A stretch of DNA of 61,743 nucleotides, the filler included, from Hausera hauseri (taxonomy: Eukaryota): NCBI GenBank assembly GCA_046269625.1. It is 11 parts of 11 records of this genome, joined end to end, with 100 filler letters (N's around TTAATTAATTAA, not from the genome) between each part and the next. Parts side by side here need not be neighbours in the genome. Positions count along the whole stretch, not along the records: positions 1 to 6,771 come from JBJURY010066995.1; 10 more parts are not named here. One strand, 5' to 3'. The position numbers and the translations under genes were made by a program. Every line of letters begins with the position of its first letter. The stretch's first letter is position 1. Below, piece by piece: positions 1-45,559 of this stretch. The notes under the pieces are model-generated. The model had not been told where the DNA came from, made no database searches, and was given only the letters and a program-made list of their open reading frames with translations.

Positions 1-1650
1 TAGAACATCCAATAGCTTATGGTGGACGCTCATTAAAGAAAGCAGAAAAGAATTATTCGGTTACCGAACTGGAGACACTGGCAGTTAAGGAAGCACTACG
101 ACACTTTAATGTCTATGTTTACGGACAGAAGATTATAATAGTGACAGATCACAAAGCCGTTACAACACTGAAAGGACAAGCTAATAACCCAACATGCAGA
201 TTAAACCGTTGGATTGAGGAAATCTCACGATATAATATTGAATTTCAATACAAACCGGGTAAAAAGCACGTCGATACTGATGCACTGTCAAGGTTAAAAA
301 CAAAAACGAGTGCGATCACTATATTAAAGAGACTACAACTTGAAAGCTGATTGAGCGACAAAGAACTCTAATATGGGACAAGACAATTAGAATTACGGCT
401 GATCAGGCTAAAGATACTGTTATTCAGCAAATTATCGAGTTCGTGCGAAACGACAAAATACCAAAAGGACGTCAATTAAAAAAGCATCTGCAGAAACACG
501 GACATAAATATTATGCATCGGATCAAAATAATATTTTGTATTACGAGCGGAAAGGGAAAAGACTAATCGTTATTCCAAAAGGATTACGTATCGAAGTACT
601 CATGACCGAACATGATTTATTTTTAGCCGGACACATGTTTTGGAAGAAGACATTAGAAAGAATACTAAATAAATACTATTGGCCAAGCATCTATATTGAT
701 GTACAAAATTGGGTAAGAGCATGCAAGGTCTGCGCGACAAAACAAAAGAAGACGAAAGGCTACGTAGCAGAATTAAAACCTATAAACGTAACAGACAGGC
801 CTATGCAAGCCATGCCTATGGACATAGTAGGACCGTTACCAAAAACTCACAAAAATAACAGATGTCTTAACATATGTACATCGACTCACACACTTTGTTG
901 AATTTGTGGCACTATTGGATCAAAAGGTAGAAACTCTAGCCGACGCAGTAGTAAGAAAAATCATCTGCAGATACGGAACACCAGAACAAATTTTAACGGA
1001 TAGAGGAAGGAACTTTACGAGCGAATTATTCGAAAAGATTGCTAAAATATTTAAAATTGAACGTTTAACCACTACAGCATACCATCCCCAATGTATTGGA
1101 ATGGTCGAGCGAATGAACGCAACAGTTATTCGAATATTATCAACAGTAGTGGCAAAGAACCAAAAGGATTGGGATGAATTCTTAGAAGGAACACAATTCG
1201 CGATTAATACGACTCCACATCCAGCAACAGGATTTACACCGTTCTTTATGATGTATGGACGAGAGGCAATCTTACCTACCGATCTAGGCATGACGCCATA
1301 CGACAAAAATCTCGAAGAATTAGAACAAAATTTTGCCGAAGTTTTACAGACAAGGCTACAGAAATGTTGGGAAGTTGCGAAAACGTTATCACTAGAGTAC
1401 CAGGAACAAGTTAAAAAACAATATGATAAGAAGATCAAACCTCATGATTTGGAAAAGGGAAACTGGGTTTATATACATTATCCAGTTGCGAAAAAAGGTA
1501 CATCCTTGAAATTAACACGTACCGGAAGAGGACCATATGAAATCATCCGGACAACACCAACTACGGTTTATGTCAATAAAAATGGTAAAGAAGAAGTCGT
1601 ATCAATTCAAAGAGTAGTCAAAACAGATATAAGGCCAGCTAAACATTACA
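1..1650 (+). pseudogene. pol: Gypsy pol fragment: RNase H, integrase zinc-binding domain, catalytic core and GPY/F C-terminal module (frameshifted)
   Basis: NYSVTELETLAV..TDHK (RNase H); H..GH...C..C zinc motif; MDIVGPLP, ILTDRGRNF, TTAYHPQCIGMVERMN (DDE core); GPYEII. Confidence 0.95.
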
Positions 1651-3101
1651 ATCTAAGGCCACGAGAGAACAAGACCTCGTCAATTATCACCAGACCGATA
1701 TCATACGTCCAGATAATCCTAGCATTATCGCTAATCACCTCTTATATTCCAAAAACACAAGCTGGAGGGTGGTACGACAAATCCACCTTAAAGAATGGAT
1801 ACGAAACGCAGAAGAATGAGATTGATAAAATAGAAAAGAAACCAATATTAGAAGAAACCCAAAGACAAAAAGATATCATGTCATTACAATCAATCACAGT
1901 TCAATATTATTCACCGAACTCTTCATGTGTTGGATTTATTATACACAAAAGATACTACGATGCTGGAAGAATTCAAATCGACCTAGATGATATAAGGACA
2001 AAAGAAACAAACAGTTGTGACTTCAGACATAAAGAGCGCACGTAATGTTGCAGCACGGAATTTGGTCATACTTACAACCTTACCTATATGCTATATTCAG
2101 CAAAATTATCGGAGATTTATGAAGTAAAACCGCAATTTCAATTAGTTATTCGTGCTTGGAATAAGCATCATGGGATAAAGTCCAACGAAATGCTCCAGTC
2201 CATCGATGTGGTAAAGCGAATGTTAGAAGAAAATATCGCAAATATTTCGGAGAACCCCAAGGACAATTGTGTTCAAGTAAAAACAAAAGGACGACTAACT
2301 AACGGTCGAGTAATCCCACTACGGTTCCTGAAGGAAAACATACAAGCTCACAATCAACAATATTGCCAAATTGACGTCGGGCAACCAACAACATGTTGTA
2401 AGTTACCCCGAAAATATGATTATAAGATTCAAATGGATTTGTATGAAGTCAGACCAAACCAGTCGAATATTTATTTAGGAAGCTACAGACTCAGAAATCC
2501 AGTTAAGTCGCATTTATTTAATATGGCAACGAATGCGGAAATGAAGCCCACTAATCCGGCACTGACCAGAACTACTTCAACAAATAGATCATCTCAAAAA
2601 GAACTAGAAACAATTCCGGTAAAATACTGGACACAACAGCGTGAAATAACTTTTGTGGTATAAAAAGTACTTGATTACTACGTGAAAATAAGTTGTCGAA
2701 CATCATATAATAATCAAAAGGTAATATTGACAAAAGGTAGCGGTAGAATCACATGTACTCACTTGAAGCCTGAAATGGATTATATTATACAAGTAAAAGC
2801 AGAGAACAGACAAAGTATAACGTTCACGGTACGAACCTTAAACGAAATGGTCTAAATGAAATCATTAAACGATGACGAAACGGATGGTGGGATGACAACT
2901 ACGACTAAAATAAAAAGTTTAACTGAACCGACAACTTTGTCGTTAATATCGATTATTGGAACATCAGTGTTCGCTCTCATAATCTTAATTGCGTTTTGTC
3001 GATTGATTACCAAAAACTGCTATAATAAACGCCCTAAAATCTATGAGAGGGAATTAAGGGTGATGGTACCACAGAATGAAATAAATGATGGAATATCCTG
3101 A
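1651..3101 (+). pseudogene. In-frame extension of Pol: signal-peptide-like segment, Cys-rich/FN3-like ectodomain repeats, transmembrane helix, short tail
   Basis: ORFs 906, 2088 and 2856 share one frame, separated by single stops; YVQIILALSLITSYIPKTQA signal; ITCTHLKPEMDYIIQVKAEN FN3 signature in 2664-2852; TM LISIIGTSVFALIILIAFCRLITK. Confidence 0.7.
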
Positions 3102-5242
3102 CAACGACAGATCGGGTTATTCCACCATCAAACAAAGAATTGGTTCAAATTTCGAACAATACTTTGTTTTAGGATTGACCCTTATTTTGTATTTTCTTTC
3201 AGAATGGTAAGTACGAGCAGCCGACCTAGAATCGACGAATTCCTGCAGAGATACGGAACAGTTCTTATTCCAAAATCAAAGGGCATATACCGAAGAATAA
3301 ACGATGCATTACGGACAGAAATACATATCGAATACCGGAAAGTAAACGAGATACCTAACGATTTGAAAGGTACTACTGAAGATAATCGCAGTTTTGCTAC
3401 ACGCAATGCGTGATAATAGTCAAGCTAAGTCATACGATCTTAAGGAACTAATCCAGAGTAAAACGGCCAGAGTAGAAGATATATTCAACCATCTAGCCGA
3501 TGGGGAAATTTATTACAGAATAAAGAACCAACAATGGGACGGTAACGAAGGGCGCCAATACCGATTTAGCACATTTAGAATAAGTGGACAAGGTTTAGAA
3601 ACTATTGACTATGGATTAGAATTTCGAGTAGCAGCCTTACCTGTTAAATTGATGTTCGAAGTGACCTATAAAGAGAGCTGCAACTTAGGCTTGCCAGTTC
3701 TACAGTTCGAACAAACCCCAACAGAGGTCGAAAAGGATGAGCATCTGCAATCATATAAGTTAGTCCAAGACGGTCGTAACGTAAGGATCCTGGCTACGAA
3801 CTATGGTAGAGGAGATGATGGATATGGAATACCGATCGAGGTATCTATTCGAGAAAGAGATGGGACCGAATTATACTCAACCATTATAAACCCTCGGAAA
3901 CATGTTTAGGAGTCACATGCGGAAGTGACTGGTCTAAGGAAAGAACAACTGATAAATGGAAGAGATATTCTACAGGTCCGTTCGGAGCTAGACCATTGCC
4001 TTTACGGATGCATGATAACAGGATACAATGTCAAAAGAGAAATCGAGCTATTAGGGATATCCGACGCAAATATCCCCGGACTTAGGGAAATAGCTACCCA
4101 TCCAATAATCCAAGAGCGAATGGCAAAAACCGTGCAAGGAAGAATTCGACCAACCGCGCCGGAAGCTTTCTTTAAAATAACCATTGAAGTGATGAGCGAC
4201 AACCCAAGTAAAATTCCGAGACTTCTGACAGCTGGTCAGCGTTCCCAATATTTACAGGAAATTTATATAACGTTAAAGTGGGAGCATGAATGGACCCCTA
4301 AAAACCCTATATACAATCTATGGAGCTCCATAAACCCTGAACAAATAGATGGAAAATATAGAAGAAACATAAAACCCTATTCCCCGATCCGAATCGTTCA
4401 ACCAGCAGACAAGCATAGTCTCAAAATTATAGTACCAGAATCAAAACCAGAAAGCAAAACGGGATTACGGATGATCAAAGAGAAAGAAAAGAAATTGCAA
4501 GGAACATCAAATTCTCCAGAAGAACTAAGAGAGGAAACAAGACCAGAAACAATAATAAAAAAATGAAGTTAGAAGAGAAACCCCAACCCAGGAAAACATT
4601 ATCCATCTGTAACTCTGTTCAAAAAGCCTAAGAAGGATGAAGGACAAAAAGTGGAGAACCAACAAAACAGGCCAAGTACCTTACAGAACGTAGAACCATT
4701 TAAAACGGGAATTAGGAATCCCATAATAACGGAAATCAACGCCCTAATAGGGAAACGGAAGAAAGATGTACACTGTGTAACAACCCAAGACTTTCCCAGA
4801 ATGTTGATAACTACCGAGTACTACAGTAAAAAGATAATAAAGGAAGCCATGTTCTTCATCAAACTTGCCCCGGCTAGAGAGGTATTTGAAAACACCTATG
4901 TATGGGAAAATACTAAACTTGGAACCTACCTTACATAAATTTTTCGATCAAAAAGGACAGGAAAGATAATAGTTCCCGTGGACAAGCAAATCCGAATATT
5001 GCTTAAGAAGCAATATCAGAAATATAAAATAGAATGGAGGATTTCTGATCTAGATAAGGACCTTATAGCGGACTGGACCCTGATTCAGATAGATTTTGAC
5101 CCGTGTAAAAGTTCAATAAACCATAAACAGAAGGTAATTCATGGGTACTTATACCAAGATGGAGACGGCCTTGCATTTGTACCCATAGAACTGATCATTC
5201 AAGACGATTTAGAGAGATGATTGGGACAAGGAAGATAGTGAA

Positions 5243-5374
5243 TGTCCCGTATGTGAAGCAAACTTAAGACAAGATTACGTAATTTTGTAAAACAGAAATT
5301 GCCGTCATAAATACTGTCGAGATTGTCTAGAGAAGTGGACACTCGACAATGGAAAAGCGACGTGCCCAGTATGC
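5243..5374 (+). pseudogene. C3HC4 RING finger not shown in the ORF track (one internal stop)
   Basis: Manual translation: CPVCEANLRQDYVIL*NRNCRHKYCRDCLEKWTLDNGKATCPVC. Confidence 0.85.
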
Positions 5375-5597
5375 CGAGCTGAGGCCACAGAATTGAAGTA
5401 CTACTCAGATGGAAGTTATACACGAATTGTTAGAATTAAACCTTACCACAGCTATAATTTGGAAACGAACCCAGTAGCCAGCCGAGACCCAAGGAGTTCA
5501 CCAACCGATCTGCCCGAAAGAATGAGTAGGTTAAGACGACCTGAAACGTTGGGCGCCACCTCTTCTGACGCAATAGGCTCCTTCGAGGATGCTGCTC

Positions 5598-5609
5598 AAG
5601 GAGGAGAAA
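5598..5609 (+). other. Polypurine tract
   Basis: AAGGAGGAGAAA immediately followed by TGT, preceded by TTCGAGGA as often seen at Gypsy 3' ends. Confidence 0.65.
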
Positions 5610-6150
5610 TGTCGTAAATCAGACTGAACTGTAACGTCCAAATTTGTATATATTACGAACAATATAAAAATAGAATATTTAACAATTAGTAGAAATTTAA
5701 ATATGGATTCATTAGTAATTCATGAAAATTGCAGAATGATTGTGTAGCTAATAATGTCGAAAATTGCGAAAATAGAAAAACAGTCTAAACAATACAGATA
5801 TAATGAAAAAGAATACAGAATAAATTTAGAAAATTCATGTAAATAACGTATCTAGAATCTGGTTGAAACACTATATAAGCAGATCGCAAAAATCAGACTC
5901 GAACAAATTAGAGTGTTAATATAACAGGCAATACATTACAAAAACAGAATCACGAAAACAAACGATACAATTTACAGGCAAGCAGCAATAAAACTATTGA
6001 GTTAGGATCATAGATGCCAGGAAAGGAAACTAATTATTCTAGTAACAAAACAGCGTGATTCCAAAGCAGAAAAACAGAACTTAGAACTAGCAAATCATTT
6101 CGTCAAATGCTTTGAAAAAATTGTTTCTGTCAAAAACGTGCTCCGTAACA
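5610..6150 (+). repeat. Putative 3' LTR (right end uncertain)
   Basis: Starts TG after the PPT; TATATAA at ~5872, AATAAA at ~5987; candidate end ..GTAACA at 6150. Confidence 0.45.
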
Positions 6151-6771
6151 GAAAATGTCAGTCAGCTTCATGGATAGCTCGCTGTTTTATTTTATTATGT
6201 GAAAGGGAGGCGTGAATACGGGGGTCTGTGGTACACCTCATTGCGTCTGTATTTTCTTCAACACTGAATGGAAAAAATAGAAGATAAATGGAAACGCAGG
6301 TTATTCTGCTTGTTTCGAAAACTGTCATTATTGCAATCCAATCTCCTCTTGAGTATCTATTTTAGTTGAGTTTATATCGGTCGAAGGGTCAACATCGTCG
6401 CACACGGATATATATCCATAAGTTCTCAGTTCTTCATTCTGTAGGATCTCAGATTAAAGGACGTGTTCCGTTGTTTTCCCTAGAATATATTCTAAATTGG
6501 GATGTCGCTATTTGCTTGAAAGGTATGATACATTAAGGGAAAAATGCAAGATTGGCCTACGAGCCCCGATTTCATCCCTGTAAAAAGAATGACTGATCAG
6601 ACAAAAGTATAAACATAGAGAAGCGCAGATGAATGAGCGTGAATAAGAATCTCTGTAGCACAACCTTGTCCAACACGGCGCAGAATTCACTGTGCCGAAC
6701 GTTTCTGAGCAAAAATTTGAAGGCACATCTGTACTTTGGATGGACACACCTAGGCAAAGTCAGCTAGTCTT

Positions 6772-14458: not shown

Positions 14459-16717
14459 CCACTTAAGCATCTCGAACAAGACCCTCTCGCGCATCAAATG
14501 TGTTCCGATTTGCGCTATCCCGAGTACCTCTCGCCACTTATAAATATTATGTTTATATTTTTATCTGGAGCGATACCTTCTCGCCCGTTTGTATTTCATA
14601 GAGCTTAGTGTATATTTATTGTATGCTCGTTCGAATTTAGTGCGTGCGCCAGTGGCATGCGCCCGCATGCGTATAACAAAACAAACATAAACAAACACGA
14701 TCAGACGTGCTTTTTCTTTGCATTCACGGTTTTATGCAGTGTTTTTCAGTTGCATACTTTAAGTGTATTATTTTGCAAATATTTTTTATTTATTGTTTTT
14801 GATCGTAAAGTAAGTAATTTTTACTTTATATTTATACATCAATTTCTATATTCAACAATTTTCATTTATTTTATCTGATTTTTTTTCAATTTTTTGCAGA
14901 ATGGAAAGCGATAGCGATAGCGGAGAGGAGTTCGATATTGAACATTCTGAAACCGATTCAACATGTTCAGCTCTGAGTGCTAGTTCAGACAATGAAACAG
15001 ATTCAAATCAATCGCAAAACGATATATCCGACGAATGGACGGAAATAAATATTGAAACCGATATACCCGCAGCATCAACATCTTTTGACTTTACTGCAAA
15101 TTCGCAGATAAATGAGGAAATTTCATCGTTTACAAAACCGAGTCAATTTTTCAACTACTTTTTCGATGACGAATTAGTACAAAATATTGTAGACCAAACA
15201 AATTTGTACTATGTACAAACTATAAGAAAAAGACCATCAACTTCTTCCGCCAATGTTGAAAATACATGGTCTACCACCATTTCAGAAATGAGGATTTTTT
15301 TTCCGTTACCACGGCTATGAGTATTGTCCAAAAACCAGAAGAAAAATTGTACTGGACTAGAAGACCGTCAATTTTCACACCGTTTTATGCTAAGTTGATG
15401 TCACATCGAAAATTTATTTTCATAAAAAAATACCTACATTTTGCAAATAACGCAACATATGACCCCGCTATACATCCACAGCCAAAACTCAACAAAATTT
15501 GGCCCGTATATTTTCACCTAAATAGGAAATTCCAAGAGGCATATACACCGCAACAGCACATCACTATTGATGAAAGTCTTATGTTGTACAAAGGTAGATT
15601 AGGTTGGGTACAATACATACCAATGAAAAGAGCCAGATTTGGGATAAAAAGTTATTTTTTGTGCGAATCCAAATCGGGATATATATGGTCATCACTTATA
15701 TATACAGGGAAAGGAACAATTATCGGGGAACAACAATATGTCAATTTACCAATGTCAACGCAAGTTGTAATGGCTCTCATGAAACCATTACTAAACAAAG
15801 GTTATTGCCTTACAATTGATAATTTTTATTCATCCGTTGAATTAGCAGATCTTCTAGTATTACATACCACCGATACCTATGGAACCATAAAATCTAATAG
15901 AAAAGGAAATCCTAAAAATTTAACGGTTCCAAAAAAAAGTAAGGCCGGGATTTTTATCAGCATATCGAAAAAGAAAAATAATGGTGATGAGATGGAAGGA
16001 TAAGAGGGATGTGTTCTTTCTCTCTACCATACATGGCACCAACTCCATAGAATATTTAAAGAAAAATATTAGAAAGAGCAAACCACAAGTAGTTATGGAC
16101 TATAATTTCACCATGGGAGGTGTTGATAGAGTAGATCAACACCTCTCAAATTATCCTGTTGCGCGCAAAAGGGGGAAGAAGTATTATAAAAAAATGTTTT
16201 TCCATTTATTGGAGCAAGCATTGTGGAATGCTTTTGTTTTGTACACAAAACAAGTGGGCTCTACGAGTAACTTAGAGTTTCGCTTACTACTAATCGATGA
16301 ATATGTAGAAATGTACCATGATCCACAATATTCATCAAAAGGTGGTCGTCCAAGCAAGAGCAATCCATTAAGATTGACAGAACGTCACTTCTTGGAACCA
16401 ATTCCAAGTACCGAAAAAAATCGGCTCCAACAAAAAGATGTGCCGTCTGCTGCAGTAAACAAAATGAGAAGGGGAAGAAAATTCGGCGTGAAAGTCGGTA
16501 TTATTGCCCTGACTGCAACGTGGGTTTATGTTTGACACCTTGTTTTAAGATTTATCACACAAAGTTGAATTTTTAATTTTTTTAAAAAATTAACGTTTTT
16601 CAATTTTTTGTTTTTTTAAGTTTATATTATGATTTCTACTTTATCAATATTATAAATAAAAACAAAAAACCCTGCTTTTTTGACCTCATTTCACAGAAAA
16701 ACCCTCGCATTAAGTGG
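14459..16717 (+). mobile_element. Full-length piggyBac element with TTAA target-site duplications
   Basis: TTAA|CCACTTAA...TTAAGTGG|TTAA termini enclosing a complete transposase. Confidence 0.92.
14901..16576 (+). CDS. piggyBac (PGBD4-like) transposase, three frameshifts near homopolymer runs
   Basis: Acidic N-terminus, ITIDESL / LTIDNFY / MGGVDRVD catalytic Asp motifs, C-terminal KRCAVC..YCPDCNVGLCLTPCFKIYH. Confidence 0.9.
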
Positions 16718-21766: not shown

Positions 21767-22891
21767 CTAAAATTTCGTTTTTGTAAATATTTTTGCGCTA
21801 ATTCGTTGATTATTTATAATTGTGGGAATACATGGAATTGTTGGTGCTTTCCTTTCGATTCCTGTTACCGTACATCGCCATATAGCATTTACGACGCGGA
21901 ACATAGCAAATATTAGTGAATATTCCTGGTTAGGTCGTGAAAATATGCAGGTTGATTGATTATGTTCTCTGGAGTAATGAATGTTATTACTACTGATGGA
22001 TATACCAGCATATCGAGTGGTTATTTGCATTACCCTACCTTTTGGTATTTTTCTATCCCATTCAACTAAGAGGCGTTGCTTTTTGTAATCAGGTTGGCCT
22101 ATAAATATTTTTTCTTCTAAGAACAATCTGTATATATTAGTTTGCTTTTTGTGTTCAAGTGAATTATCCGTCAGAGATATCGTAACTGTCTTCGGTTCTG
22201 CGGGTATCACTATTTCAATTGTCTGATTTTTGGTGAGGGGTAAATCCTTACTTCTTGATGTATGTATTTGCACGGAATAAATAGATCCAGGGGTAACTTT
22301 ACAACAGTTTTCTTTGTGTGTGGATGTATACGTACATATTATCTTTGATCTTCTGTAGAAGGTTAATGTTCCCCATTGTTCCTTTACTGATTTATCATTC
22401 GTTTTATTCTGTTTAGAAGAAAATTTTATAAATAGACACTTCTTTCTATGATTGTACTGGATAAGGAGGTTTCCTGGTCTGGTTTCTTGGATATCCCATG
22501 GTTCTGTTTTCGGATTTCTTTTTAGATATTTCATAAAGTCTGAAAATATATCCAATGCTGTCCGATTGAGCAAGTTTGTTGTCATTTTCTGAGGATTTAG
22601 AGTTAGCTGTGTTAATAAAGTCAGTATACAGCAAACTAATATACTCAGTGGTACAATCATCCGATGAGGTTTTGGGCAATTTCCAATTCGCATTTGATGG
22701 GAATTGGCGTGCTTTCTAGTCTGTCGACGTCTTCTGATATATAGGATTAATGTTGGTATAACTATAATTATAACGACAAAAGGGAATATAATAATTATTA
22801 GCAATAATGACCTAAAATCTTGACTTATTGTTATATTAGGCAATTTATTCTTTATCAATATTTCGTTTTCGATAGTTGTTGTTTGAACCAT
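21767..22891 (-). CDS. Membrane protein: TM helix, second hydrophobic segment, Cys-rich/FN3-like domains
   Basis: LLLIIIIFPFVVIIIVIPTLILYIRRRR; IVPLSILVCCILTLL; KCLFIKF..ICTYTSTHKENCCKVTPGSIYSVQI. Confidence 0.55.
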   Translation of the reverse strand: MVQTTTIENEILIKNKLPNITISQDFRSLLLIIIIFPFVVIIIVIPTLILYIRRRRQTRKHANSHQMRIGNCPKPHRMIVPLSILVCCILTLLTQLTLNPQKMTTNLLNRTALDIFSDFMKYLKRNPKTEPWDIQETRPGNLLIQYNHRKKCLFIKFSSKQNKTNDKSVKEQWGTLTFYRRSKIICTYTSTHKENCCKVTPGSIYSVQIHTSRSKDLPLTKNQTIEIVIPAEPKTVTISLTDNSLEHKKQTNIYRLFLEEKIFIGQPDYKKQRLLVEWDRKIPKGRVMQITTRYAGISISSNNIHYSREHNQSTCIFSRPNQEYSLIFAMFRVVNAIWRCTVTGIERKAPTIPCIPTIINNQRISAKIFTKTKF

Positions 22892-22988
22892 CGTCTATGA
22901 ATGCGATCGTCATATTCTCACATTTTTTCATTTTGGATAATTCTTTGTTATAGTATAAACGTAAAATACGCTTATCGAAAGCATTTAA

Positions 22989-24041
22989 TCACCGGAGGTT
23001 CCTTGTCATATCTGTTGCTGTTTCCTCTTCATTATTTGGTTTTTGTCGACGGGTTTTTATAATTTTTTTCCGTTTTTCTTTGAATGGTTTGGCTATTTCT
23101 TCGCTGTTGTTTAGTTCACAAAATATTAAATGATACCGTATTTTATTTAATTTACTCGAGAATCCGCTTGCATTCACCATGTCGAACTTATCTATACCTT
23201 CATAATCTTGTGGGGTTAATGCAGTATTTACATCTCGGTCCACATAATTGTTCCCTACTATTCGCGCTTTATCTCCGTCGTAAACATTTATTTCTTCCCG
23301 TATAAGGTCGTCTTTTATGGCCATGAGTGTATATGTCATCCAGCAGTTAATCATAAAAGCATACGTTTGAGTTTTGATGCTTAGCTCTTTACCATAATAT
23401 CTAAATAGTCCTAGGCATCTGTTGGCTAGTTTAAGGATCTTTTTTGGAGGTTTATTTGCTATTAATTTCGGGAAGATTCTTTGAAGGTAATTAATTATGT
23501 GCGTCATGGGAAATGATAATGGTATTTCTTGAAAGAAACGAGTGATCAGCACACGTTCTCTGCGGCTTCCAACAAATAAAGGTTGATATATGGTTTTATC
23601 TCCATATACTATATTTTCCTCGTGAGTTAGGTTGTATTTCTCTATTAGCAGGTCAAATGACTGGAGACAACGTATTATCTGTAGTGCGGAGTGGGTTTCT
23701 AATCGAGCCTTTATTAATGAGTCGTGTTCTGGGCACATGGGTTCATTACATAATATTCCCATTACATCGTTCCAGGTCTCTATCAAGACTTTGGTAGGCT
23801 GTAGCCATAAGGGTTGTAACGGTATTTCCATTATAATTTGTTGCAGTAGATAGAATCCTTCATAGTATACTTTGGTTTGAAAGTCACTCAGTGGACAAGA
23901 TAGCAGATTATCTATTGGAATTTTATAGGAGAAGTATAAGATGCTGGATATCAGAAGTAGTTGGTATTTATAAGTTGATTCCTTAAAATTTAATTCGGTT
24001 TCTTGTTTTAGTCGATTAAAATATGGTTCGTACAGGATCAT
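22989..24041 (-). CDS. Unknown helical-looking protein fragment (350 aa)
   Basis: Long uninterrupted ORF in AT-rich DNA, same strand bias as neighbours; no family recognised. Confidence 0.45.
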   Translation of the reverse strand: MILYEPYFNRLKQETELNFKESTYKYQLLLISSILYFSYKIPIDNLLSCPLSDFQTKVYYEGFYLLQQIIMEIPLQPLWLQPTKVLIETWNDVMGILCNEPMCPEHDSLIKARLETHSALQIIRCLQSFDLLIEKYNLTHEENIVYGDKTIYQPLFVGSRRERVLITRFFQEIPLSFPMTHIINYLQRIFPKLIANKPPKKILKLANRCLGLFRYYGKELSIKTQTYAFMINCWMTYTLMAIKDDLIREEINVYDGDKARIVGNNYVDRDVNTALTPQDYEGIDKFDMVNASGFSSKLNKIRYHLIFCELNNSEEIAKPFKEKRKKIIKTRRQKPNNEEETATDMTRNLR

Positions 24042-25183
24042 ATACAGTTTTATGAAGTCTTTTCGGTCCTCGTATGGTAATTGATCTATACTACCTTCTA
24101 ATAGTAAACAATTAATAATATGTCTGAGCCCTTCACGAGATGTCTAGCCGAATATACGAAGCTTAGTGGTATGGTAATCTTCGTAAAACAAGGTAATAAG
24201 GTGGTCATTTCTTGGTTCTATATTATCTAACCATTGTTCGGTCCTATCTGCTATAAGACGTAGCTTTTTATGGTATTTGGAATATCTCACTCCTCTGGGC
24301 ATATTTCTATTGAATCAATGGGATGGTGTAGTGGTTGATAAACTAATATATGTAATACTCGATCAATTTCCTCTCTATTAGACCGGAGGTTAGTTGGGTT
24401 TATTATTAGGGTATTTATTAGCCTAAAGTATAGAATTATCTGATTAGCCATTACATAACTATATCCTTTTACTGGATTTACTACGCTTACAATGGTGACC
24501 AGAATTGTGTGGGTCTCAGACGTTGCTGTCATCGGTGTCAAGTTAAAATCTTCCTGTATCGCTTCTATTAGATCTGGTGCAATTATCCTCTTAATTTTAT
24601 ATTGTTCCCATTTAATTCCGTTTTAATTTAATTCGTCCATGGCTTTCTGTACCGGTGTAGGTAATTTCTTCCATTCGTCGGTATTAATATAATTTTTATG
24701 AAACATCTCTTTGGGGCAGTAATATTTCCGTTTTTTCGGAGGGGGTCGTGTTCAGAATTGGTAGTTTTCCAAACTTTCCCTTGGTTTGGATACGGTACTC
24801 TTTGTTCTGTATGACAGGAACAGTGGGGAAGTACTTTTTCCTTTTAATATTCTTTCAATATATGTATTAAATTAGAATAATCGTCATCAGATTGTATTTG
24901 TTCGCAAAGTTGCTTTTCAGATAACGGTTTGTCGGGTGAAAAGTTCGATGGTTGTGTTTTGCTGACTTCTTTTGGGGTCTCCGTTGAATTTAAATAATCC
25001 GAGTATTCTTTCGACAGTCTAATGGTGCGTAGGAATTCCGATGATGTTCTCATACTATTTAAAGGGAATTCATTTGTTATATGGTCTATATTATCATCAC
25101 TGTTGAATGTCGTGGATTTTTCTTTTATTAAAATATTTATTCCAGACGGAATCCGGGACGCTTATTATTTTCCAACATCCATT

Positions 25184-25945
25184 TTACTCATCATCGTCAT
25201 CACTAAAGAGTTTGCCTATCATTAGTACCGAGAGTATCCATAGTAGTATTGAGGTCAACGTGGGACTCGGATGTTGAGATGCGGTCTCGTCTGCATTTGC
25301 TATATTGATCATGGATAGGAAACATATTCCCGTAAAATGTAACGTTCCGAGTGAAAACGAAGTAGCGCCTTTTATTTCCGAGGATTCCCGTTTTTTATCT
25401 TTTTCTTGAAGGTATTGAATATGCATAGCTCTTGTCTTATTTGCAATTTCGCCTAAGTATTTAGTACAGTTACCGGCAAATTGTAGTGGATCAATTTTCA
25501 TCCATTGTTCTGGAGGGAGATTGCTATCTAAAGGTTGGCCCATTATTCTGTTCCAAACTCGTTTGATTTCTTCTAATCCGTTAGTAAGTTCTTGGCCTTC
25601 TATATTTAAATTATAGTGTTTATAGATTTTTAACGCTCGGCTGACTGCCATATAGTCATGGTGTTGGGATTTTCCTGGACTGGCTAAGTCGGGAATTGTA
25701 TAATATACTTTTTTGCAATTTATCTTTATTAGAAGTCTGTCCAATGAAGTCAGTGTAATAAAATCCAATTTTAGATCCTTGCAAATTATTTTTATTATTG
25801 GTTTATATTGTTCATCTGTTATCTCGCATTTTCCGTGATACTTGCAGAGAAATTCTCTTAATTGCATTACAATATTTATGGGTCCCTTGATTAGTTCCTG
25901 TGCGTGATTAATACGCTGTGGAGAGGCTAGCAGGAAATTTTCCAA
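25184..25945 (-). CDS. Unknown protein fragment ending in two hydrophobic segments
   Basis: 253-aa ORF; LHFTGICFLSMINIANA and LTSILLWILSVLMIGKLF. Confidence 0.4.
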   Translation of the reverse strand: MENFLLASPQRINHAQELIKGPINIVMQLREFLCKYHGKCEITDEQYKPIIKIICKDLKLDFITLTSLDRLLIKINCKKVYYTIPDLASPGKSQHHDYMAVSRALKIYKHYNLNIEGQELTNGLEEIKRVWNRIMGQPLDSNLPPEQWMKIDPLQFAGNCTKYLGEIANKTRAMHIQYLQEKDKKRESSEIKGATSFSLGTLHFTGICFLSMINIANADETASQHPSPTLTSILLWILSVLMIGKLFSDDDDE

Positions 25946-26729: not shown

Positions 26730-27270
26730 AATTCTAAAACAATACAACGCACAGAACTCGTCTTCTACATTATACCAAAAGGTTCAGCTTCGTTTTACAA
26801 AGATGCACTGTTTGGCGACATGAGATTGCCGAAATTTATGCTCGTTGCATTTTAAACGACTGTTCAACAAACGGCAGTTATACCACCGATTTGGAAACGT
26901 TTACCCATAGCAATGTAAATTATATCGGTTTGGTTCGGAATGCGCGTTTTGTTGAGACATACAAGCATGATTTCGAGACCGGCGATTGCATTTGCACATA
27001 TATGCAATCTATCGTGCGCAACATGGGTTTGCTCAACAAAAACATCAACAATGGCATATCGATCGATTTGTTCAAATCCACCTATCTATTCTTTACATTT
27101 GTCCTGGCTAAGGACTATAACGTTAAGCAGGCTCAACTACCTCAGCAGGAAAACCTACGATTGGCGGTTCACTTTGTTAAAGCGTTGGAGCAATCTACCG
27201 TGATGTATATTTACGGTGTATTTGATGCCGATGTTGAAATAACGAAAAACGGAACCGTCATTGTATACAT
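26730..27270 (+). pseudogene. Polinton/Maverick major capsid protein, C-terminal part
   Basis: RTELVFYIIPKG..LPKFMLVAF..NGISIDLF..YLFFTFVL..NLRLAVHF..YGVFDADVEI follows the Maverick MCP C-terminal pattern. Confidence 0.75.
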
Positions 27271-27349
27271 AAAACCTTCTTCTTCTTCTTCCTCCTCCTC
27301 TTTGTACCATGAAGTTATTTATTACCATTATTACTATTATGATTAATTC

Positions 27350-29473: not shown

Positions 29474-30885
29474 CGGGTTGATTTCCCTCTTAATTTTATT
29501 TAATCGACACCAATACATAGGTATTTTCGGTTGATTCGAAAAAAAAATTGAATAAATTCTTTCTTTGACTACAACGAATATTTATAGTTAAATGAGTAAG
29601 AGCTATATTTGCAAAAATGACTAAGAGTTAAATAAATGTTTGACCAACTGTTAAATGTAATTTCCATCTTTATCAATGACGTTACATAGATGAAAATTAT
29701 TATTCATGGAGCATTATTTCCTCCGTTAATGTTGACAACTGTTTATTTAAGAAGTTTCTAAGTTCTTGTACCGAATCAAAGGACATTCTACATCGCTTCA
29801 TTTCTAAGTCGGGAAACACCTTACGATCTAGGACATTTATATCAGGAGAATACGGACTTTGCTTCACAATGCGACAATGTTTGCGTTCAAGAAACTTACG
29901 TGTCGCAGCTGACACATGTTGGGGAGCATTACCATGCATTAATATAAAATTTCCCCACAGTATATTTCTCCTTTGCACGACATCATATTTATTAAAAGCG
30001 GTGATAACTTTGTCAAGAAAGTTTATGTAACATTTAGAATTGACTGTTTCTCCGTGTTCTAAGACTTTCAAATGATACAATCCTCTAAAATTGACTGCAA
30101 CAAAGCAGTGAAATTTTGTGCCAACAGCTTTTCTTTTTGACATTTCAGTCCTGTCACTATAATGTGGGACCCAAGACTTCCTTGTGATGTGGTTTCCGAT
30201 CGGATAAGCATAAAAGGCTTTCTCGTCCGTAACTACCAGATACCATGTAATATTTCTGTTGTGTTGGAAAACGTCTAAGAGATCCTGACAACAAGTGATT
30301 CATTGCTGTTTCTGTTCCTTATTTATTTTGTGAGAAATCCATTTTTCTGAAATGCATGACCAATTAAGATCTTCTGTAATGATTCTTAACACCATTGCCT
30401 AGGACAATCCTAAACGATCTTCTACCTCTCATGTAGTCATTTTGTTATCATCAGAAAGGAAAGCTTCAATTTGACCGGCAAACAACTGTCTTTCTTCACA
30501 TTTCTTCCGCCCGCTTCCTTCCTTTCTATTGAAGTTTTCCCTGGAATTGTCTTTAAATTCTTTACAAATTTGCTGAACTCTTCGCAACTTTATGACATTT
30601 TCACCCCTTGTGGTTATGATAACGTTATGAAAGTCTGTACCCTTGTAATTATTTCTTCTTAGGGTTTCAATAACAACATAGATTTCGTTACTTGAAGGTT
30701 TCAAACTTTCAATTAAAATCAGATAAAATTTCAATATAAAAGCAAAGCAAACAAACCTTTAGGATTTCTTGAAACGATAATTCAAATTTTTCGACATCAC
30801 TACGTGATATTTGATTTATTAAAATAAAACATTTATACTTATGTATTTTTGTCGACTAAATAAAATTAAGACTGAAATCAACCCG
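29474..30885 (-). mobile_element. Full-length decayed mariner (DD34D spacing) with TIRs and TA flanks
   Basis: TA|CGGGTTGATTTC...GAAATCAACCCG|TA; LVVTDEK, LMHGNAPQH, PYSPDINVLD with 34 residues between second and third catalytic positions. Confidence 0.9.
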
Positions 30886-30909
30886 TAATAAATTAATCCA
30901 AAATCGAAA

Positions 30910-31741
30910 AACTGAGCTGTTATCGTACCAGAAACTTGCAGATTGATTCAAATACTGTCTACCAAATCATTCAACGACTTAAGTTGTGAGGTTTATTGTC
31001 ACATAAACCTCATAAAACAGGGTCGAAAACAAATGTTAAAGATTCGAGCAAAACGTGAGGTTGTTCGGGAAGCGTCGAAAGCTCCATTTAAAAGTTCCAG
31101 CAAGTTTGCCGAAATAGTTCAAACATACTTCCAGAAAAAGTTGCCCTCAGAACTATCCGAAAAGTACTCAACCAAGCTGGACTACGAGGATGCACAACCC
31201 GAAAGAAGCCCTTTATTTCAAAAATCAACAAAGCCAAGAGACTAGCTCTCGCAAAGAAGCACATAAGCAAACCTCAGAGCTTTTGGAATAGTATTTTGTG
31301 GTCTGACGAAACAAAACTTGTTTTGTTCAGACTGGCAAAAATATCTGGAGAACAGCAAATCAAGCAGTGCTTCCAAAACACCTCATTCCAACTGTCAAAT
31401 ATGGAGGAGGGAACGTCATGGTTTGGAGGTCGATGGCTTCCAATGGTGTCGGTAAAATGGAAATTTTTTATTTCAGAATGGATTTGGAGCATAACATCGC
31501 AATTCTGGGTAGAAATGAACAGAAATCTACTCAAAAGCTCCAGATAGGGAGAAAACATGTCTTCCAACAGGACAGCGACCCCAAACGCACCTCCAAAAAG
31601 GCACAGCTTTTCTTCAAAAACAAAAAGTTACGGTTCTTGGAATAGTCTTAGAAAAGTCGCCAGATTTAAACCCCATCGAACATTTATAGGGAATTTTAAA
31701 GAAAAGCGTATATGGTGTTCCTCCATCAAACCTGAATCAAC
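30910..31741 (+). mobile_element. Tc1 (DD34E-type) transposase remnant
   Basis: ILWSDETK, PTVKYGGGNVMVW, FQQDSDPKRTSK, SPDLNPIEHL. Confidence 0.9.
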
Positions 31742-31841: not shown

Positions 31842-32447
31842 AGTTGCAAAAACCAATGGAAGCTATTACGAATGTTGGAGCATTTGGAACTAGGGTGCAA
31901 GTAAAAGACTTAATTAAATGTGAGACAAAAGTCTTTAATCAAAAATTGGAGCAAGAATTTAGAATAGCCGATGAACTGGTGGCTGAAGCTATACTTGGTT
32001 GTGATGCACTAGCAAAGTTAAATGATATGTGTATGAACTTAGAAACCCAACAAATTCAACCATATCGAAAAACAAGGAATGAGAAAAAAAAATATAGTAT
32101 CAATTGAAGATGATATGTTAATAACAGCTAGAACAGAAATTGTACTCAAGGCATTAGTAGAAGGCCGAGACGAAGAAGACGTATATATCGAACCAAATAT
32201 GATTTTTATGGACAAGAATGAGCTATAGATAGCCCATACCATTGATAATATTCGAGAACACCAAGTGGTTGTTCGGATAGCTAACGTTTCAAATAAACCA
32301 AAATTATTGAGAAAAGGGACAAGAATTGCCTATGTATATTTGATAAAGGATATAGGTAACAATGCTACGGAAGCTATTATTTCCACTGTACAGGAATTAT
32401 CCGAATTTATGGAAAGACAATGACAAAAACCACGAACAGAAGCCTGG

Positions 32448-35015
32448 ATGCGATTAGAAAGTAAATCAATGAATAAATTGCAAAGTCATCTTAACAAAAA
32501 CAAAAATATAACAAAACTTGTCAAGACTCCTACCATATGGAATGATTATGACCTGTTCGGTAAAGATAGTACATTGACTGATGCGGAAAAAGAAGGTACA
32601 ATAAAAATATTACAACAATATAAAGATACCTTTGCCATCGATGAATATGATATGGGTATTATACCCGTCATCAAACACGAAATTAAACTGAAGACTGGAA
32701 TGGAAACTCCAATTAAAAAGAGGCCATATCGGCTTAACTATGACAAACGAGAAAAGGCTAAAAAAATAAAAGCCGAAATGAAACAGCATGACATAATTAG
32801 ACCAAGCAACTCACCATGGACAGCACCTATCGTGATGGTACAAAAGAAGGATGGGTCCATTAGAATGTGTGTGGATTATCGTGCTTTGAACGAAGTAACG
32901 GTAGACAATACCTACCCGTTACCGAGGATTGACGAAATATTAGACAAGCTGAAAGACAAAATGTTGTTTACCACGTTGGACTTACAAAAAGGTTTCTGGC
33001 AGATAGAAGTACAAGAAGAGGACAAACAGAAAACAGCCTTCGTGACGGCAGACGGACATTATGAATTCAACCGGATGGCATTCGGAATGAAGAACGCCCC
33101 GGCAACTTTTCAAACAGCTATGGATATAATTACCATGGATGCTCCACACATAATGTGTTATGTGGATGACGTTATAATTGCGTCAGCTGATTACAAACAA
33201 CACAAGGAACATCTTAAGGATATGTTGGAAAGATGTGCTCTCTTGGGAATTAAAATTAGTTTAAAGAAATGTTGTTTTGCCCGAACTAAAGTTGACTTTT
33301 TAGGCCATACAGTAAGTAGAGATGGAATTAGTCCACAAATTGGAAAAATCAACAAAATCCAAGACTTTCCAGTTCCAAAGACTGTTAGAGGAGTTCGAAA
33401 ATTTCTTGGCCTTACAGGCTATTATCGTAAATTTGTTAAGGACTATCAACAGATAGCTTCCCCTCTACATTCATTACTACAAGAGAATTCCAAGCTTGTT
33501 TGGACCCAAGAGTGTCAAAAAGCATACCAACAATTAAAGGACTGTTTATTAACTCCACCAATATTAGCGTACCCTAATATGTCAAAACCATACTTTCTAG
33601 CAACGGATGCAAGTAAAGTCGGAATTGGAGTAGTCCTGTCACAAAAAGATGATCAAGGACAAGAGCACCCCATATCATTTGGAGGAAGGAAGCTGAGGAA
33701 GCACGAAAAAAATTACTCTACAATTGAGAGGGAACTGCTTGCTATCGTCTACGCGTTAGAACAATATGGCCAGTATCTATCTGAAACAAAACCAATTATT
33801 GTTTATACTGACCATAAGCCGCTACAATGGTTAAAAAGCCATAAAAATCCAAATAGTCGCCTAATGAAATGGGCTATGTTACTTCAACCCTACGATTTGA
33901 AGTTTGAATATAAAGCTGGTAAAGCTAACGCAAATGCTGATTATATGTCAAGGATATCTGAGGATATAGATCAAAAAGATAAAGAGATAACAGATAAACC
34001 AGGGGCCATAGAAGCCATTTGGAGTATAACAGAGCAAGAAAAATCGCTACAACAAAGACAGCAGAATGATGAACAGGTAAAGCAAATTAAGGAATACCTT
34101 CAGAAGAAGATTGTGCCAAAGAATAATGATCTCTACACCCATTTGACAAAATTTGCTGAAAATTACCAGATAAAAGATCGTATATTATATTATAACCATA
34201 AAGGAAAATGTGTCGTCGTTGTTCCCCAAGAAGATATAAAACTTTTGTTAATACAATACCATGATGGTATGTTGGGCAGACATCACTCAAAGAAACGGAC
34301 TTTAGGTCGATTGAAAAGAAAATACTATTGGTATAAAATGTCCAAAGATGTAGAAGAATGGAGCAAAAGTTGCCCTATTTGTGCAACGCGAAGGAATACG
34401 GGCTCGAAAATTAAGGTTCCTTTGAAACCATTAGAATGCCCACCTGCCCCTATGGAGTTCTCAGCCATGGACATTCTAGGACCGTTGCCAATGACTATAA
34501 ATGGGAATAAGTACATGTTGGTTTTTGTTGATTTATTTTCCAGATGGCCCGTAGTAGTTCCGATACCAGACCAAAAAGCACAAACTATTGCACAAGCGTT
34601 TGTTGAAGAGATTGTATTCAATTATGGAGCACCTACTAAACTACTAACAGTTCAAGCTCCAAATTTTATAGGAGAAGTAATGGCGGAGATTTCGAAGATA
34701 TTCCATATATTACAGTTAAAAACTACCCCATATCATCCACAAACTAATGGAGCGGTCGAGCGATTTAATGGAACCTTAACCAACATGCTTGTAACTATGG
34801 TTAATGAACGACAGGATGACTGGGATGAATACATCAAACCATGTTTATTCGCTATAAGGAATACAATTCATCCTGCGACAAAAGAAACTCCGTTTTATTT
34901 AATGTATCTTAGAGATACGCACATGCCAGTTGATATAGATTTTAAAATGCCCCTGTCTCATCTAAAGGACATGGAGTATAAAGAATTATTAGAAGAAAAA
35001 CTTGGATATGTGTGA
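32448..35015 (+). CDS. pol: Gypsy Pol: reverse transcriptase, RNase H, integrase
   Basis: RMCVDYRALN, YVDD, TDASKVGIG, TDHKPL, MDILGPLP, YHPQTNGAVERFN; frame continues after a single TGA. Confidence 0.97.
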   Translation: MRLESKSMNKLQSHLNKNKNITKLVKTPTIWNDYDLFGKDSTLTDAEKEGTIKILQQYKDTFAIDEYDMGIIPVIKHEIKLKTGMETPIKKRPYRLNYDKREKAKKIKAEMKQHDIIRPSNSPWTAPIVMVQKKDGSIRMCVDYRALNEVTVDNTYPLPRIDEILDKLKDKMLFTTLDLQKGFWQIEVQEEDKQKTAFVTADGHYEFNRMAFGMKNAPATFQTAMDIITMDAPHIMCYVDDVIIASADYKQHKEHLKDMLERCALLGIKISLKKCCFARTKVDFLGHTVSRDGISPQIGKINKIQDFPVPKTVRGVRKFLGLTGYYRKFVKDYQQIASPLHSLLQENSKLVWTQECQKAYQQLKDCLLTPPILAYPNMSKPYFLATDASKVGIGVVLSQKDDQGQEHPISFGGRKLRKHEKNYSTIERELLAIVYALEQYGQYLSETKPIIVYTDHKPLQWLKSHKNPNSRLMKWAMLLQPYDLKFEYKAGKANANADYMSRISEDIDQKDKEITDKPGAIEAIWSITEQEKSLQQRQQNDEQVKQIKEYLQKKIVPKNNDLYTHLTKFAENYQIKDRILYYNHKGKCVVVVPQEDIKLLLIQYHDGMLGRHHSKKRTLGRLKRKYYWYKMSKDVEEWSKSCPICATRRNTGSKIKVPLKPLECPPAPMEFSAMDILGPLPMTINGNKYMLVFVDLFSRWPVVVPIPDQKAQTIAQAFVEEIVFNYGAPTKLLTVQAPNFIGEVMAEISKIFHILQLKTTPYHPQTNGAVERFNGTLTNMLVTMVNERQDDWDEYIKPCLFAIRNTIHPATKETPFYLMYLRDTHMPVDIDFKMPLSHLKDMEYKELLEEKLGYV

Positions 35016-35299
35016 AACCTAGCTTCACGACATATAAAAATATGCCAGAAAGAATATAAAAATAGATACGATGAGAAAACGAAGTCCCATGGTTTCAAAC
35101 CCGGAGATAAAGTCATGCTACATACGCCGTTAAATAAGAAAGGCAGAACACCAAAGTTGGACAGACCATATAAAGGTCCATATATGGTCCAAAAAGTAGA
35201 CGAAACGAATATCTATTTGAATAAAAACAAAAGGAACAAGATAGACCCGATAAAAGTCCACGTAAACAGGTGCAAGCCAGCAACCACAGAATCAAGGAT

Positions 35300-36093
35300 T
35301 AGAAGTGGAAATCCTAATTTATTATTAGTAACAACGTTTATGGTATTGAGTTTAGTGACTTGTGCATCAACTCAGTCTCTCGATGTCAAGTATAAAGCTG
35401 TTCAAATCGGAAAATACCCATGTGTAAAAATTACAGCCAACCGGAACTTAACAATAGATGAATATATACATATATTCATATCAAAATTACCTATTGTGGA
35501 AAAAGCGACACCAGAAAATTGTGATTTATACCACAATCATTCAGTACATATTTGTTGTGGACTTTCATTTGGAGAAACGTATAGAATTCAGTACGCAATT
35601 GGAAAAAGTGATCACGGTTATATAACATATTTCTCTTTCCCAGGTACTACCCATTACTTCCATCGACCATATTTTCTTATTTCATTTTATTCCAAGGTCA
35701 TGAAAAATGGACCTTGCATAACAGCAGAACCAGACGTACAAATCACGAAGTATGTAACATTCCAATATGAAATATTCGATGGCACTAACAACACATATTG
35801 TAAACCAAATTACCAAAATCCATATGTGTTGTCCAATTATTTTTAATAAATAGTATATGATATACTATTGGACCACGTACAATGGTTATACATGGTCAAA
35901 AACAGCAGATGGACCCGAGATAATAGTAAGATCCCCGGTAAAGATAACCCCTACTTCAACAAGAAAAGCAACTACCTTGGTGACACAATCAAGTATACTA
36001 ACTACATTACATAAAATGGTAACGAGTCCCACCATGGAACCTAAGAAGAGAATCAAAGAACTAGACATAATTATACAACCAACAAATTACTCA
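35300..36093 (+). pseudogene. Signal peptide, Cys-rich ectodomain repeats and Thr-rich stalk fused downstream of integrase
   Basis: LLLVTTFMVLSLVTCASTQ; PCVKIT..NCDLYHNHSVHICCGLSFGETYRIQY; TPTSTRKATTLVT. Confidence 0.65.
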
Positions 36094-40687: not shown

Positions 40688-40729
40688 AATTGTTATTCCA
40701 TATATAATCCAAAGTGAATTTTCACCTCC

Positions 40730-40918
40730 TTGGGAAAAGAATGTGCCATTTGTTTGAGTGAATGCTCAATGGACCAAATAGAATTAATTACAAGTAAGCA
40801 TCAATTCTGCCGTCAGTGCATAAAAGGATGGTTTGCACCTGAAACCTCTTGTCCAAAGTGCCGCACTAACATTAAATTATTCCAATATGGAAATAACTAT
40901 TATACTGTAAAGAATTGA
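40730..40918 (+). CDS. RING finger protein, C-terminal fragment
   Basis: CAIC..SKHQFCRQC..W..CPKCR (one ligand Cys reads Ser). Confidence 0.75.
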   Translation: MGKECAICLSECSMDQIELITSKHQFCRQCIKGWFAPETSCPKCRTNIKLFQYGNNYYTVKN

Positions 40919-41153
40919 TAAATAAAATTTTAGTATTAAAATTTTGTGATGTTATAGAGTATATTGTATTTTAGCTGAAATGCAAAAGGTCAAAAAACTG
41001 TAATTCCAAACACCTAGACAGTATGAATATGTCAGACCAGTACAATCTAATACAGTACAATATATATTACATTATCAGAATAGACAATTCGGACCAGCGT
41101 TATTTATTAAAAGACAAATAAGTTACTCCAAGGCTATAGTATTAGATAACTCT

Positions 41154-42197: not shown

Positions 42198-42337
42198 TAA
42201 CCAATATAAATTTAATTGAATAAATGTTATTTAGTTCATATGAATTTGTTGTGATAAAATTGAATAAATTTATTGTAGAATTACCGGTTATCAACAGTAT
42301 GACTCTAATCAACCTTAGTGAGTAAACAGTTCAAGTA

Positions 42338-42787: not shown

Positions 42788-42790
42788 AAA

Positions 42791-45420: not shown

Positions 45421-45559
45421 GGAACACCATCAAGTTACATCCAAACCACCAACCAATAGTTCTATACTGGAAAAACCCTTCATAACTAGAAAGCATTTGG
45501 ATCAGGCAGAACGGAAAGTACCAGATATTCAAAGTAATACACTCCCATACATGTTATGG

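What the first reader, a model, noticed from the sequence alone, without database searches (positions are those of the whole stretch)
906..3101. Integrase reads in frame into a type I membrane protein with FN3-like ectodomain
Seen: after the GPY module the same frame gives a signal-like segment, two Cys-patterned repeats, a clear FN3 signature (LKPEMDYIIQVKAEN), a TM helix and a short tail. Established: Gypsy env genes are normally separate ORFs coding fusion proteins. Inference: a receptor/adhesion-like surface protein released from Pol by signal peptidase, perhaps for cell-to-cell spread or immune decoy function.
Basis: partly seen in the sequence, partly recalled or inferred. Interest (0 to 1): 0.75.

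Follow-up and report, generated by a model that had tools for sequence, protein, structure and literature searches.

The report
Retrotransposon polymerase ending in fibronectin-like surface protein
A multi-copy, retrovirus-like jumping gene of an animal continues its enzyme gene, without a stop, into a membrane protein with predicted fibronectin-type domains that resembles no known viral fusion protein and likely serves as a cell-attachment factor, a layout not found in the papers searched.

Summary
In this decayed Gypsy LTR element the integrase frame runs on through a signal-like stretch, three ~90-residue repeats, a transmembrane helix and a short tail, with 3 stops in 473 codons against ~35 expected. 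The fusion is family-wide: 381 contigs from 3 runs laid on the junction show 30 variants, 23 synonymous, none making a stop or start, and no indel. A natural homolog (P0005, 30% identical, E 9e-52) is open across all three stops and keeps all 10 ectodomain cysteines. Its model folds repeat 1 as FN3 (Z 8-8.7, rmsd ~2.5), so the 'Cys repeats' are likely FN3 too. A second Gypsy lineage in the window (integrase 37% identical) has the same junction. No furin site, fusion peptide or fusogen match was found. Likely mechanism: internal signal, release from Pol by signal peptidase, display as an attachment protein; role untested. The 5' half of the element is off the contig, so a separate fusogen upstream is open. 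New variant of a known kind.

The parts
3..347 (+). RNase H of Pol (contig starts inside pol; gag, protease, RT and anything upstream are missing)
   Evidence: Pfam RT_RNaseH E 4e-23
344..898 (+). Connection and integrase H2C2 zinc-binding domain, in another frame (frame breaks near 344 and near 870-900 in this copy)
   Evidence: Pfam Integrase_H2C2 E 3.5e-18; frame map
888..1628 (+). Integrase core, GPY motif (1530-1538) and C-terminal domain
   Evidence: Pfam rve E 9e-8; 37% identity to the second element's integrase
1629..1691 (+). Basic linker from integrase to signal; open in all laid copies
1692..1763 (+). Internal signal-like segment, basic residues before it, small residues at the inferred -3/-1 positions
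   Evidence: hydropathy; 20 of 25 residues identical in P0005; cleavage inferred
1764..1877 (+). Charged, poorly conserved N-terminal stretch (long helix in the homolog's model)
   Evidence: 3 of 38 identical to P0005; model
1878..2150 (+). Repeat D1, 4 Cys, predicted FN3 beta-sandwich; broken by the stop at 2043
   Evidence: homolog model pLDDT 67-81, VIA Z up to 8.7 to FN3 domains
2223..2492 (+). Repeat D2, 4 Cys, homologous to D1, likely FN3
   Evidence: D1 vs D2 z 10.4 in P0005; tandem-FN3 Foldseek hits of ~190 columns; pLDDT only 54-67
2523..2603 (+). Ser/Thr-rich linker
   Evidence: sequence; also S/T-rich in P0005 and P0006
2604..2843 (+). Repeat D3, 2 Cys, FN3-like; broken by the stop at 2661
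   Evidence: Pfam fn3 E 9e-4, sub-threshold; best PDB sequence hit tenascin-R, E 2.2, not significant; model pLDDT ~41-51
2844..2936 (+). Thr-rich stalk; broken by the stop at 2853
2937..2999 (+). Transmembrane helix followed by basic residues (type I orientation inferred)
   Evidence: helix 430-457 in homolog model
3000..3101 (+). Cytoplasmic tail (33 aa) and stop codon
   Evidence: P0005 and P0006 end at the same aligned position
3178..3202 (+). Splice-acceptor-like pyrimidine tract directly followed by an ATG
   Evidence: 13 of 15 pyrimidines, best in 3050-3300; use inferred
3204..5217 (+). Broken accessory ORF(s) of unknown family
   Evidence: ORF map; no Pfam hit on the pieces scanned; 4939-5217 not scanned
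5213..5614 (+). RING finger (C3HC4-type) coding stretch, one internal stop
   Evidence: Pfam zf-RING_2 E 2.4e-9, above cut-off
5598..5609 (+). Polypurine tract; 3' LTR inferred to begin TG at 5610 (its end not defined)
35016..35843 (+). Second, distant Gypsy element on another contig with the same integrase-signal-repeat junction

Best explanation
This is a decayed copy of a multi-copy animal Gypsy LTR retroelement whose pol frame continues past integrase into a signal-like segment, three predicted fibronectin type III (FN3) domains, a membrane anchor and a short tail, likely released from Pol by host signal peptidase and likely displayed as a non-fusogenic attachment protein. Shown: the open junction across the family, selection on it, copy-specific stops, conserved cysteines, the same junction in a second lineage. 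Predicted: FN3 fold (D1 well, D2 moderately, D3 weakly). Inferred: the hydrophobic segment acts as an internal signal that threads the downstream part into the ER; cleavage leaves Pol tethered by the signal stub and frees a type I glycoprotein (5 N-glycosylation sequons, 5 possible disulfides). Inferred, least certain: it binds a partner on neighbouring cells or concentrates capsids at cell contacts, with membrane fusion, if any, done by another protein such as a gB-type Env in the missing 5' half.
For: 3 stops in 473 codons vs ~35. Junction 1620-1790: 351+28+2 contigs laid, 30 listed variants, 23 synonymous vs 37 of 105 possible transitions, 0 stop, 0 ATG, no indel. At the 2043 stop codon most laid contigs differ from the window (X1 13 contigs, 541 of 553 depth; X2 5 contigs, all depth). 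P0005 covers the whole post-integrase region without stops, P0006 covers D3-TM-tail. 10 of 10 ectodomain Cys shared at ~30% identity; signal 20 of 25 identical. D1 model matches FN3 domains, Z 8.7, rmsd 2.4-2.6 over 84-86 residues; top Foldseek hits are tandem FN3 pairs. A profile of D1/D2 finds the post-integrase domain of the second element, E 3.7e-5 within the window (z 7.9). No R-x-K/R-R furin site, no internal hydrophobic peak between signal and TM. No in-frame Met between 1290 and 1878 and no strong acceptor upstream of the signal.
Against: No expression, cleavage, localisation or binding data. Whole model pLDDT 49.7 from 4 rows; Z 8-8.7 is only just above the tool's background of 7-8, and D2/D3 were not searched alone. 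Pfam fn3 stays below cut-off and is absent on P0005. P0005's called gene starts 10 residues before the signal with a Met directly before it, and its upstream DNA could not be read. No fused Pol-FN3 protein was found in two 'longer' searches (weak tests). Run X1 may be the window's own sample, and variants under 8% or copies under 80% alike are unseen. The 5' half of the element is absent.
Confidence: 0.52

Rival explanations
1. Same polyprotein and fold, but the protein manipulates the host rather than helping attachment: a decoy or dominant-negative mimic of an FN3 receptor, or a superinfection block, working beside the element's RING-finger protein.
For: Best structural matches include cytokine-receptor FN3 domains; short tail without a recognised signalling domain; RING gene in the same element; Burro-type elements carry apoptosis and ubiquitination domains (PMC6431247, passages); ectodomain diverges far more than the signal.
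Against: The matches to cytokine receptors, fibronectin and adhesion molecules are tied within 1 Z and 4-14% identity, so they name no ligand; no close host paralog found among 1.84 billion representatives (2 hits only).
Confidence: 0.25
2. The surface protein is mostly made on its own (own start or spliced mRNA) and the open junction with integrase is incidental.
For: P0005 has a Met directly before the signal; extra ORFs of LTR elements are typically expressed from spliced messages (PMC5408684, passage); the element has an acceptor-like site further down.
Against: No stop, indel or ATG among 30 junction variants; second lineage also open and without Met before its signal; best acceptor candidates upstream score 10 of 15 pyrimidines against 13 of 15 at 3202.
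Confidence: 0.13
3. It is a highly diverged true fusogen (for example class II, whose domain III has an FN3-like topology next to stem and anchor).
For: Env position; nematode Bel/Pao elements encode a class II Env at the end of one Gag-Pol-Env polyprotein and its domain III is FN3-like (PMC9094657, passages).
Against: Three ~90-residue repeats, two of them homologous, instead of an elongated domain I/II; no furin site or fusion-peptide-like stretch; D1 model is a compact FN3 sandwich.
Confidence: 0.06
4. Neutral captured host fragment or chance open frame.
For: This copy is decayed; earlier AI notes report host-gene scraps in retroelements of this assembly.
Against: Synonymous excess at the junction, complete SP-to-tail homolog with all Cys kept, same junction in a second lineage.
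Confidence: 0.04

Closest known systems
Env-carrying Ty3/gypsy elements (errantiviruses), F-type and HSV gB-type, incl. flatworm GAG-ENV-POL elements (Chary & Hayashi, PMC13524379; abstract, section 5 part 1 of 2, passages, searches in supplementary files 2 and 3)
   Same: Gypsy pol; signal + ectodomain + TM in the position after integrase; multi-copy
   Different: Ectodomain predicted FN3 repeats, not F or gB; in frame with integrase; no furin site. 'fibronectin' occurs 0 times in that paper's main text and in supplementary file 3. Whether this element also has gB upstream is unknown.
Burro/GYPSM1 giant Gypsy elements of planarians (PMC6431247, passages of section 7)
   Same: One long polyprotein with membrane parts in frame; accessory RING/ubiquitin-type genes
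   Different: Their in-frame env lies between gag and pol and is fusion-protein-like; no FN3 protein after integrase is mentioned in the passages read ('fibronectin' 0 in listing)
Nematode Bel/Pao elements such as Atlas virus (PMC9094657, passages)
   Same: Surface protein encoded at the end of a single Gag-Pol-Env frame
   Different: Belpaoviridae; Env is a phlebovirus-like class II fusogen
Crocodilian CrocERV31 with captured nectin3 (PMC4299795, passages)
   Same: Host-type adhesion ectodomain of three beta-sandwich domains in the env position, under purifying selection, role proposed in binding
   Different: Vertebrate retrovirus, Ig domains, recent capture (~76% to host gene); here FN3-like, no identifiable donor, fused to Pol, shared by two distant lineages
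sORF2 of Drosophila MDG1-group elements (PMC11952523, abstract and outline)
   Same: Non-Env membrane protein of a Gypsy element, precedent for contact-mediated spread
   Different: sORF2 is a tiny FAST-like fusogen in its own ORF; this is a 470-residue type I protein

Membership tests
Ty3/gypsy LTR retroelement (Metaviridae) | Pol order RT-RNase H-integrase, integrase last | tested here: met
   RNase H, H2C2, rve in that order; RT itself off the contig
Ty3/gypsy LTR retroelement (Metaviridae) | GPY/F motif after integrase core; PPT then LTR | tested here: met
   GPY 1530-1538, PPT 5598-5609, TG at 5610; the GPY/F label is recalled; LTR end not defined
Ty3/gypsy LTR retroelement (Metaviridae) | RT phylogeny, gag, paired LTRs | not testable with these tools
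   5' half missing; no genome held
Errantivirus with F- or gB-type Env | Ectodomain homologous to F or gB fusion protein | tested here: inconclusive
   The post-integrase protein's modelled D1 matches FN3; an Env elsewhere in the element cannot be seen
Errantivirus with F- or gB-type Env | Furin site R-x-K/R-R and fusion peptide in the post-integrase protein | tested here: not met
   No such motif in P0002 or P0005; no hydrophobic peak between signal and TM
Fibronectin type III domain (PF00041 clan) | Pfam fn3 score above cut-off | tested here: not met
   19.8 bits vs 25 on D3; none on P0005
Fibronectin type III domain (PF00041 clan) | Seven-stranded ~90-residue beta-sandwich superposing on FN3 structures | tested here: met
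   D1 of P0005 model: 7 strands, Z 8.7, rmsd 2.6, 86 aligned; a prediction; D2 partial, D3 not resolved
Type I membrane protein released by signal peptidase | Internal signal with basic N-side, hydrophobic core, small -3/-1 residues; one C-terminal TM with basic cytosolic side | tested here: met
   rule recalled (von Heijne), no dedicated predictor run
Type I membrane protein released by signal peptidase | Actual cleavage and surface display | not testable with these tools
   needs protein data
Burro-type giant element | Giant polyprotein with BIR, BCL2 and env between gag and pol | not testable with these tools
   5' half missing for this element

The most novel reading that the evidence does not exclude
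A lineage of Gypsy elements builds a two-component entry system from one polyprotein, like herpes- or paramyxoviruses: a captured, host-type FN3 adhesion protein cut from the end of Pol provides cell targeting, old enough to be shared by lineages with 37% integrase identity and diversifying in its ectodomain; it either partners a gB-type fusogen upstream or replaces Env altogether.
Probability: 0.35. Interest if true: 0.8.

Novelty: new variant of a known kind. Interest (0 to 1): 0.6.

Why it matters
Known Gypsy envelope genes are virus-derived fusion proteins, and how gB-type elements find their target cells is stated as unknown (PMC13524379, passage). A conserved host-style FN3 surface protein built into Pol is a concrete candidate for that missing attachment function, and it would also tie Pol to the ER membrane. 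Screens that look only for F/gB homology would miss it.

Tried and rejected
No genome held. Word-based homolog searches: 0 hits for longer proteins with the ectodomain or integrase end; only P0005 with the alignment. No related loci in viral contigs or JGI metagenomes. No PHROGs hit. Single-sequence model of this copy's ectodomain unusable, pLDDT 34. ESM Atlas: FN3-type clusters at 0.79-0.88 for the second element's domain and for P0005, below 0.9, leads only. No viral fusion protein among the listed rows of Foldseek PDB, BFVD or VIA; absence from a list excludes nothing. No RNA holder listed. Summed contig depth is lower over the ectodomain than over integrase and 2939-3164, and very low beyond 5650; depth cannot rank parts, so not used. 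The 16 ectodomain variant rows shown (9 non-synonymous, 7 synonymous) are a biased subset (40 of 1525 rows) and were not used; stops 2661 and 2853 were not among the rows shown. ORF 21770-22894 looked similar by eye but is not supported (E 0.04 pairwise; not found by the profile). Literature: searches found no Gypsy element with an FN3 protein after integrase; subscription papers, figures, Repbase notes and unread supplements (5 of 7 files of PMC13524379) may bear on this. PMC12440569 (Troyka; passages) not relevant. Sequence look-ups in earlier findings were blank.

Full report
Setting. The window is 11 contigs of 4-8 kb joined by spacers; the finding lies in the first, 1-6771. No genome is held. 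The contig starts inside pol: RNase H, integrase zinc domain and core follow in Gypsy order, and the element ends at a polypurine tract at 5598-5609 followed by TG. The element is multi-copy: 18,685, 1,387 and 154 contigs of three runs lay on it. The host is an animal (transposon and lectin-like genes in the window); a flatworm is plausible because another contig has BIR and RING genes before gag, as Burro elements do, but contigs need not share a host and this is not shown.

Observation. Frame +3 runs from integrase through GPY (1530), a basic linker, a hydrophobic segment (1692-1763), three repeats, a stalk, a TM helix (2937-2999) and a 33-residue tail to a stop at 3099. It has 3 stops in 473 post-integrase codons against 43 and 34 in the other frames and ~35 expected. 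The FN3 signature is real but weak: Pfam fn3 19.8 bits, below the cut-off.

Is the fusion a family trait? On 1620-1790, 351, 28 and 2 contigs were laid. Of 30 listed variants (8% share or more), 23 are synonymous against 37 of 105 possible transitions (binomial p 4e-6; variants are not independent events), none makes a stop or an ATG, and no indel is listed; one X2 contig spans the whole stretch without gaps. X1 may be the window's own sample. A second Gypsy element (32424-35843), integrase 37% identical, also runs from GPY into a hydrophobic segment and a homologous Cys repeat (z 7.9; profile E 3.7e-5). Against: P0005's called gene begins 10 residues before the signal with a Met next to it, and its upstream DNA could not be read; two searches for long fused proteins were blank but weak.

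Are the stops decay? At 2043 most laid contigs differ from the window. For 2661 and 2853 no rows were shown, but P0005 (479 aa, 30% identical over residues 3-466, E 9e-52) is open across all three positions and P0006 (189 aa) across the last two. They were the only 2 hits among 1.84 billion representatives; both are singletons from ENA. This copy also has frame breaks in pol, so it is dead.

Fold. All 10 ectodomain cysteines are shared with P0005; D1 and D2 are homologous (z 10.4) and all three repeats end in a C-x(7)-Y-type motif. An AlphaFold2 model of P0005 from 4 rows has mean pLDDT 49.7, but D1 reaches 67-81 with seven strands. Foldseek's top PDB hits are tandem FN3 pairs (E 1e-5, ~190 columns). 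VIA aligns D1 to FN3 domains of cytokine receptors, tissue factor, fibronectin and NCAM at Z 8-8.7, rmsd 2.4-2.9; this is just above the tool's background, but nearly all top-50 rows are FN3-containing chains by their titles, and two rows span D1 and D2. D3 is supported only by sub-threshold Pfam. There is no furin motif or fusion-peptide-like stretch.

Mechanism. Shown: one frame, conserved junction, conserved anatomy. Inferred from general knowledge of signal sequences: the segment after integrase, basic on its N side and with small residues at -3/-1, threads the rest into the ER; signal peptidase frees a type I glycoprotein and leaves Pol on a membrane stub. The signal is far better kept (20 of 25) than the ectodomain (~30%), which fits a constrained processing site and a changing binding surface. 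I commit to an attachment role (0.52 overall) over a decoy or host-modulating role (0.25), separate expression (0.13), a diverged fusogen (0.06) and neutral cargo (0.04). Downstream, an acceptor-like site at 3202 precedes broken accessory ORFs ending in a RING finger, so this is a complex element.

Comparison. Described Gypsy Envs are F- or gB-type (PMC13524379); in-frame env is known between gag and pol in Burro (PMC6431247) and at the polyprotein end in nematode Bel/Pao (PMC9094657); a host adhesion protein in the env slot is known from a crocodilian retrovirus (PMC4299795); non-Env membrane proteins mediate spread in Drosophila (PMC11952523). An FN3 protein fused behind Gypsy integrase was not found in searches. 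An earlier AI note of this scan (e1-8146259, another genome) describes a flatworm GAG-gB-POL polyprotein ending in a fibronectin-like membrane protein; I could not test its link to this family (blank), it is a lead only, but it moved my reading from 'replacement env' towards 'accessory attachment protein' and shows the layout has been flagged before in this scan.

Verdict. Real, selected, fold reasonably supported, function untested. New variant of a known kind; interest 0.6.

Noticed in passing
window 32424-36093 (+): Nearly intact Gypsy pol whose integrase runs in frame into a signal-like stretch and the same Cys repeat; cut by the contig end before any TM.
   Followed up: partly
window 3178-5614 (+): Acceptor-like site followed by ATG and then a donor-like GT motif; ~800 codons of broken accessory ORF with no Pfam hit, ending in a RING finger that overlaps the PPT.
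   Followed up: partly
window 40688-48819 (+): BIR + RING ORF (Pfam) and further RING-like stretches before a gag-like region, an RS-rich tract and a BCL2-like W..GGW motif near 48380 (motif recalled; no Pfam hit): Burro-like element.
   Followed up: partly
window 21770-25945 (-): A-rich gene string of unknown proteins (384 aa, 253 aa) and a 375-aa ORF with two hydrophobic stretches and a Cys pattern resembling the repeats; homology not supported.
   Followed up: partly
window 1696-2930 (table 5): One X1 contig joins 1696 to 2930, skipping the signal and whole ectodomain (letters between not known): a deletion or an unrelated ectodomain in some copies.
   Followed up: no
window 1759-1779 (table 7): Several contigs match up to the end of the signal and then diverge, suggesting subfamilies with different ectodomain N-termini.
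   Followed up: no
window 54938-61743 (+): Another Gypsy element (gag, protease, RT, integrase) whose post-integrase tail is a long hydrophilic stretch with no membrane part: an in-window contrast.
   Followed up: no
window 14814-16532, 26738-27343, 29703-31544, 50362-51036: By eye: piggyBac-like transposase, Polinton-like protein piece, Tc1/mariner-like transposases and a C-type-lectin-like ORF (labels recalled, not tested).
   Followed up: no
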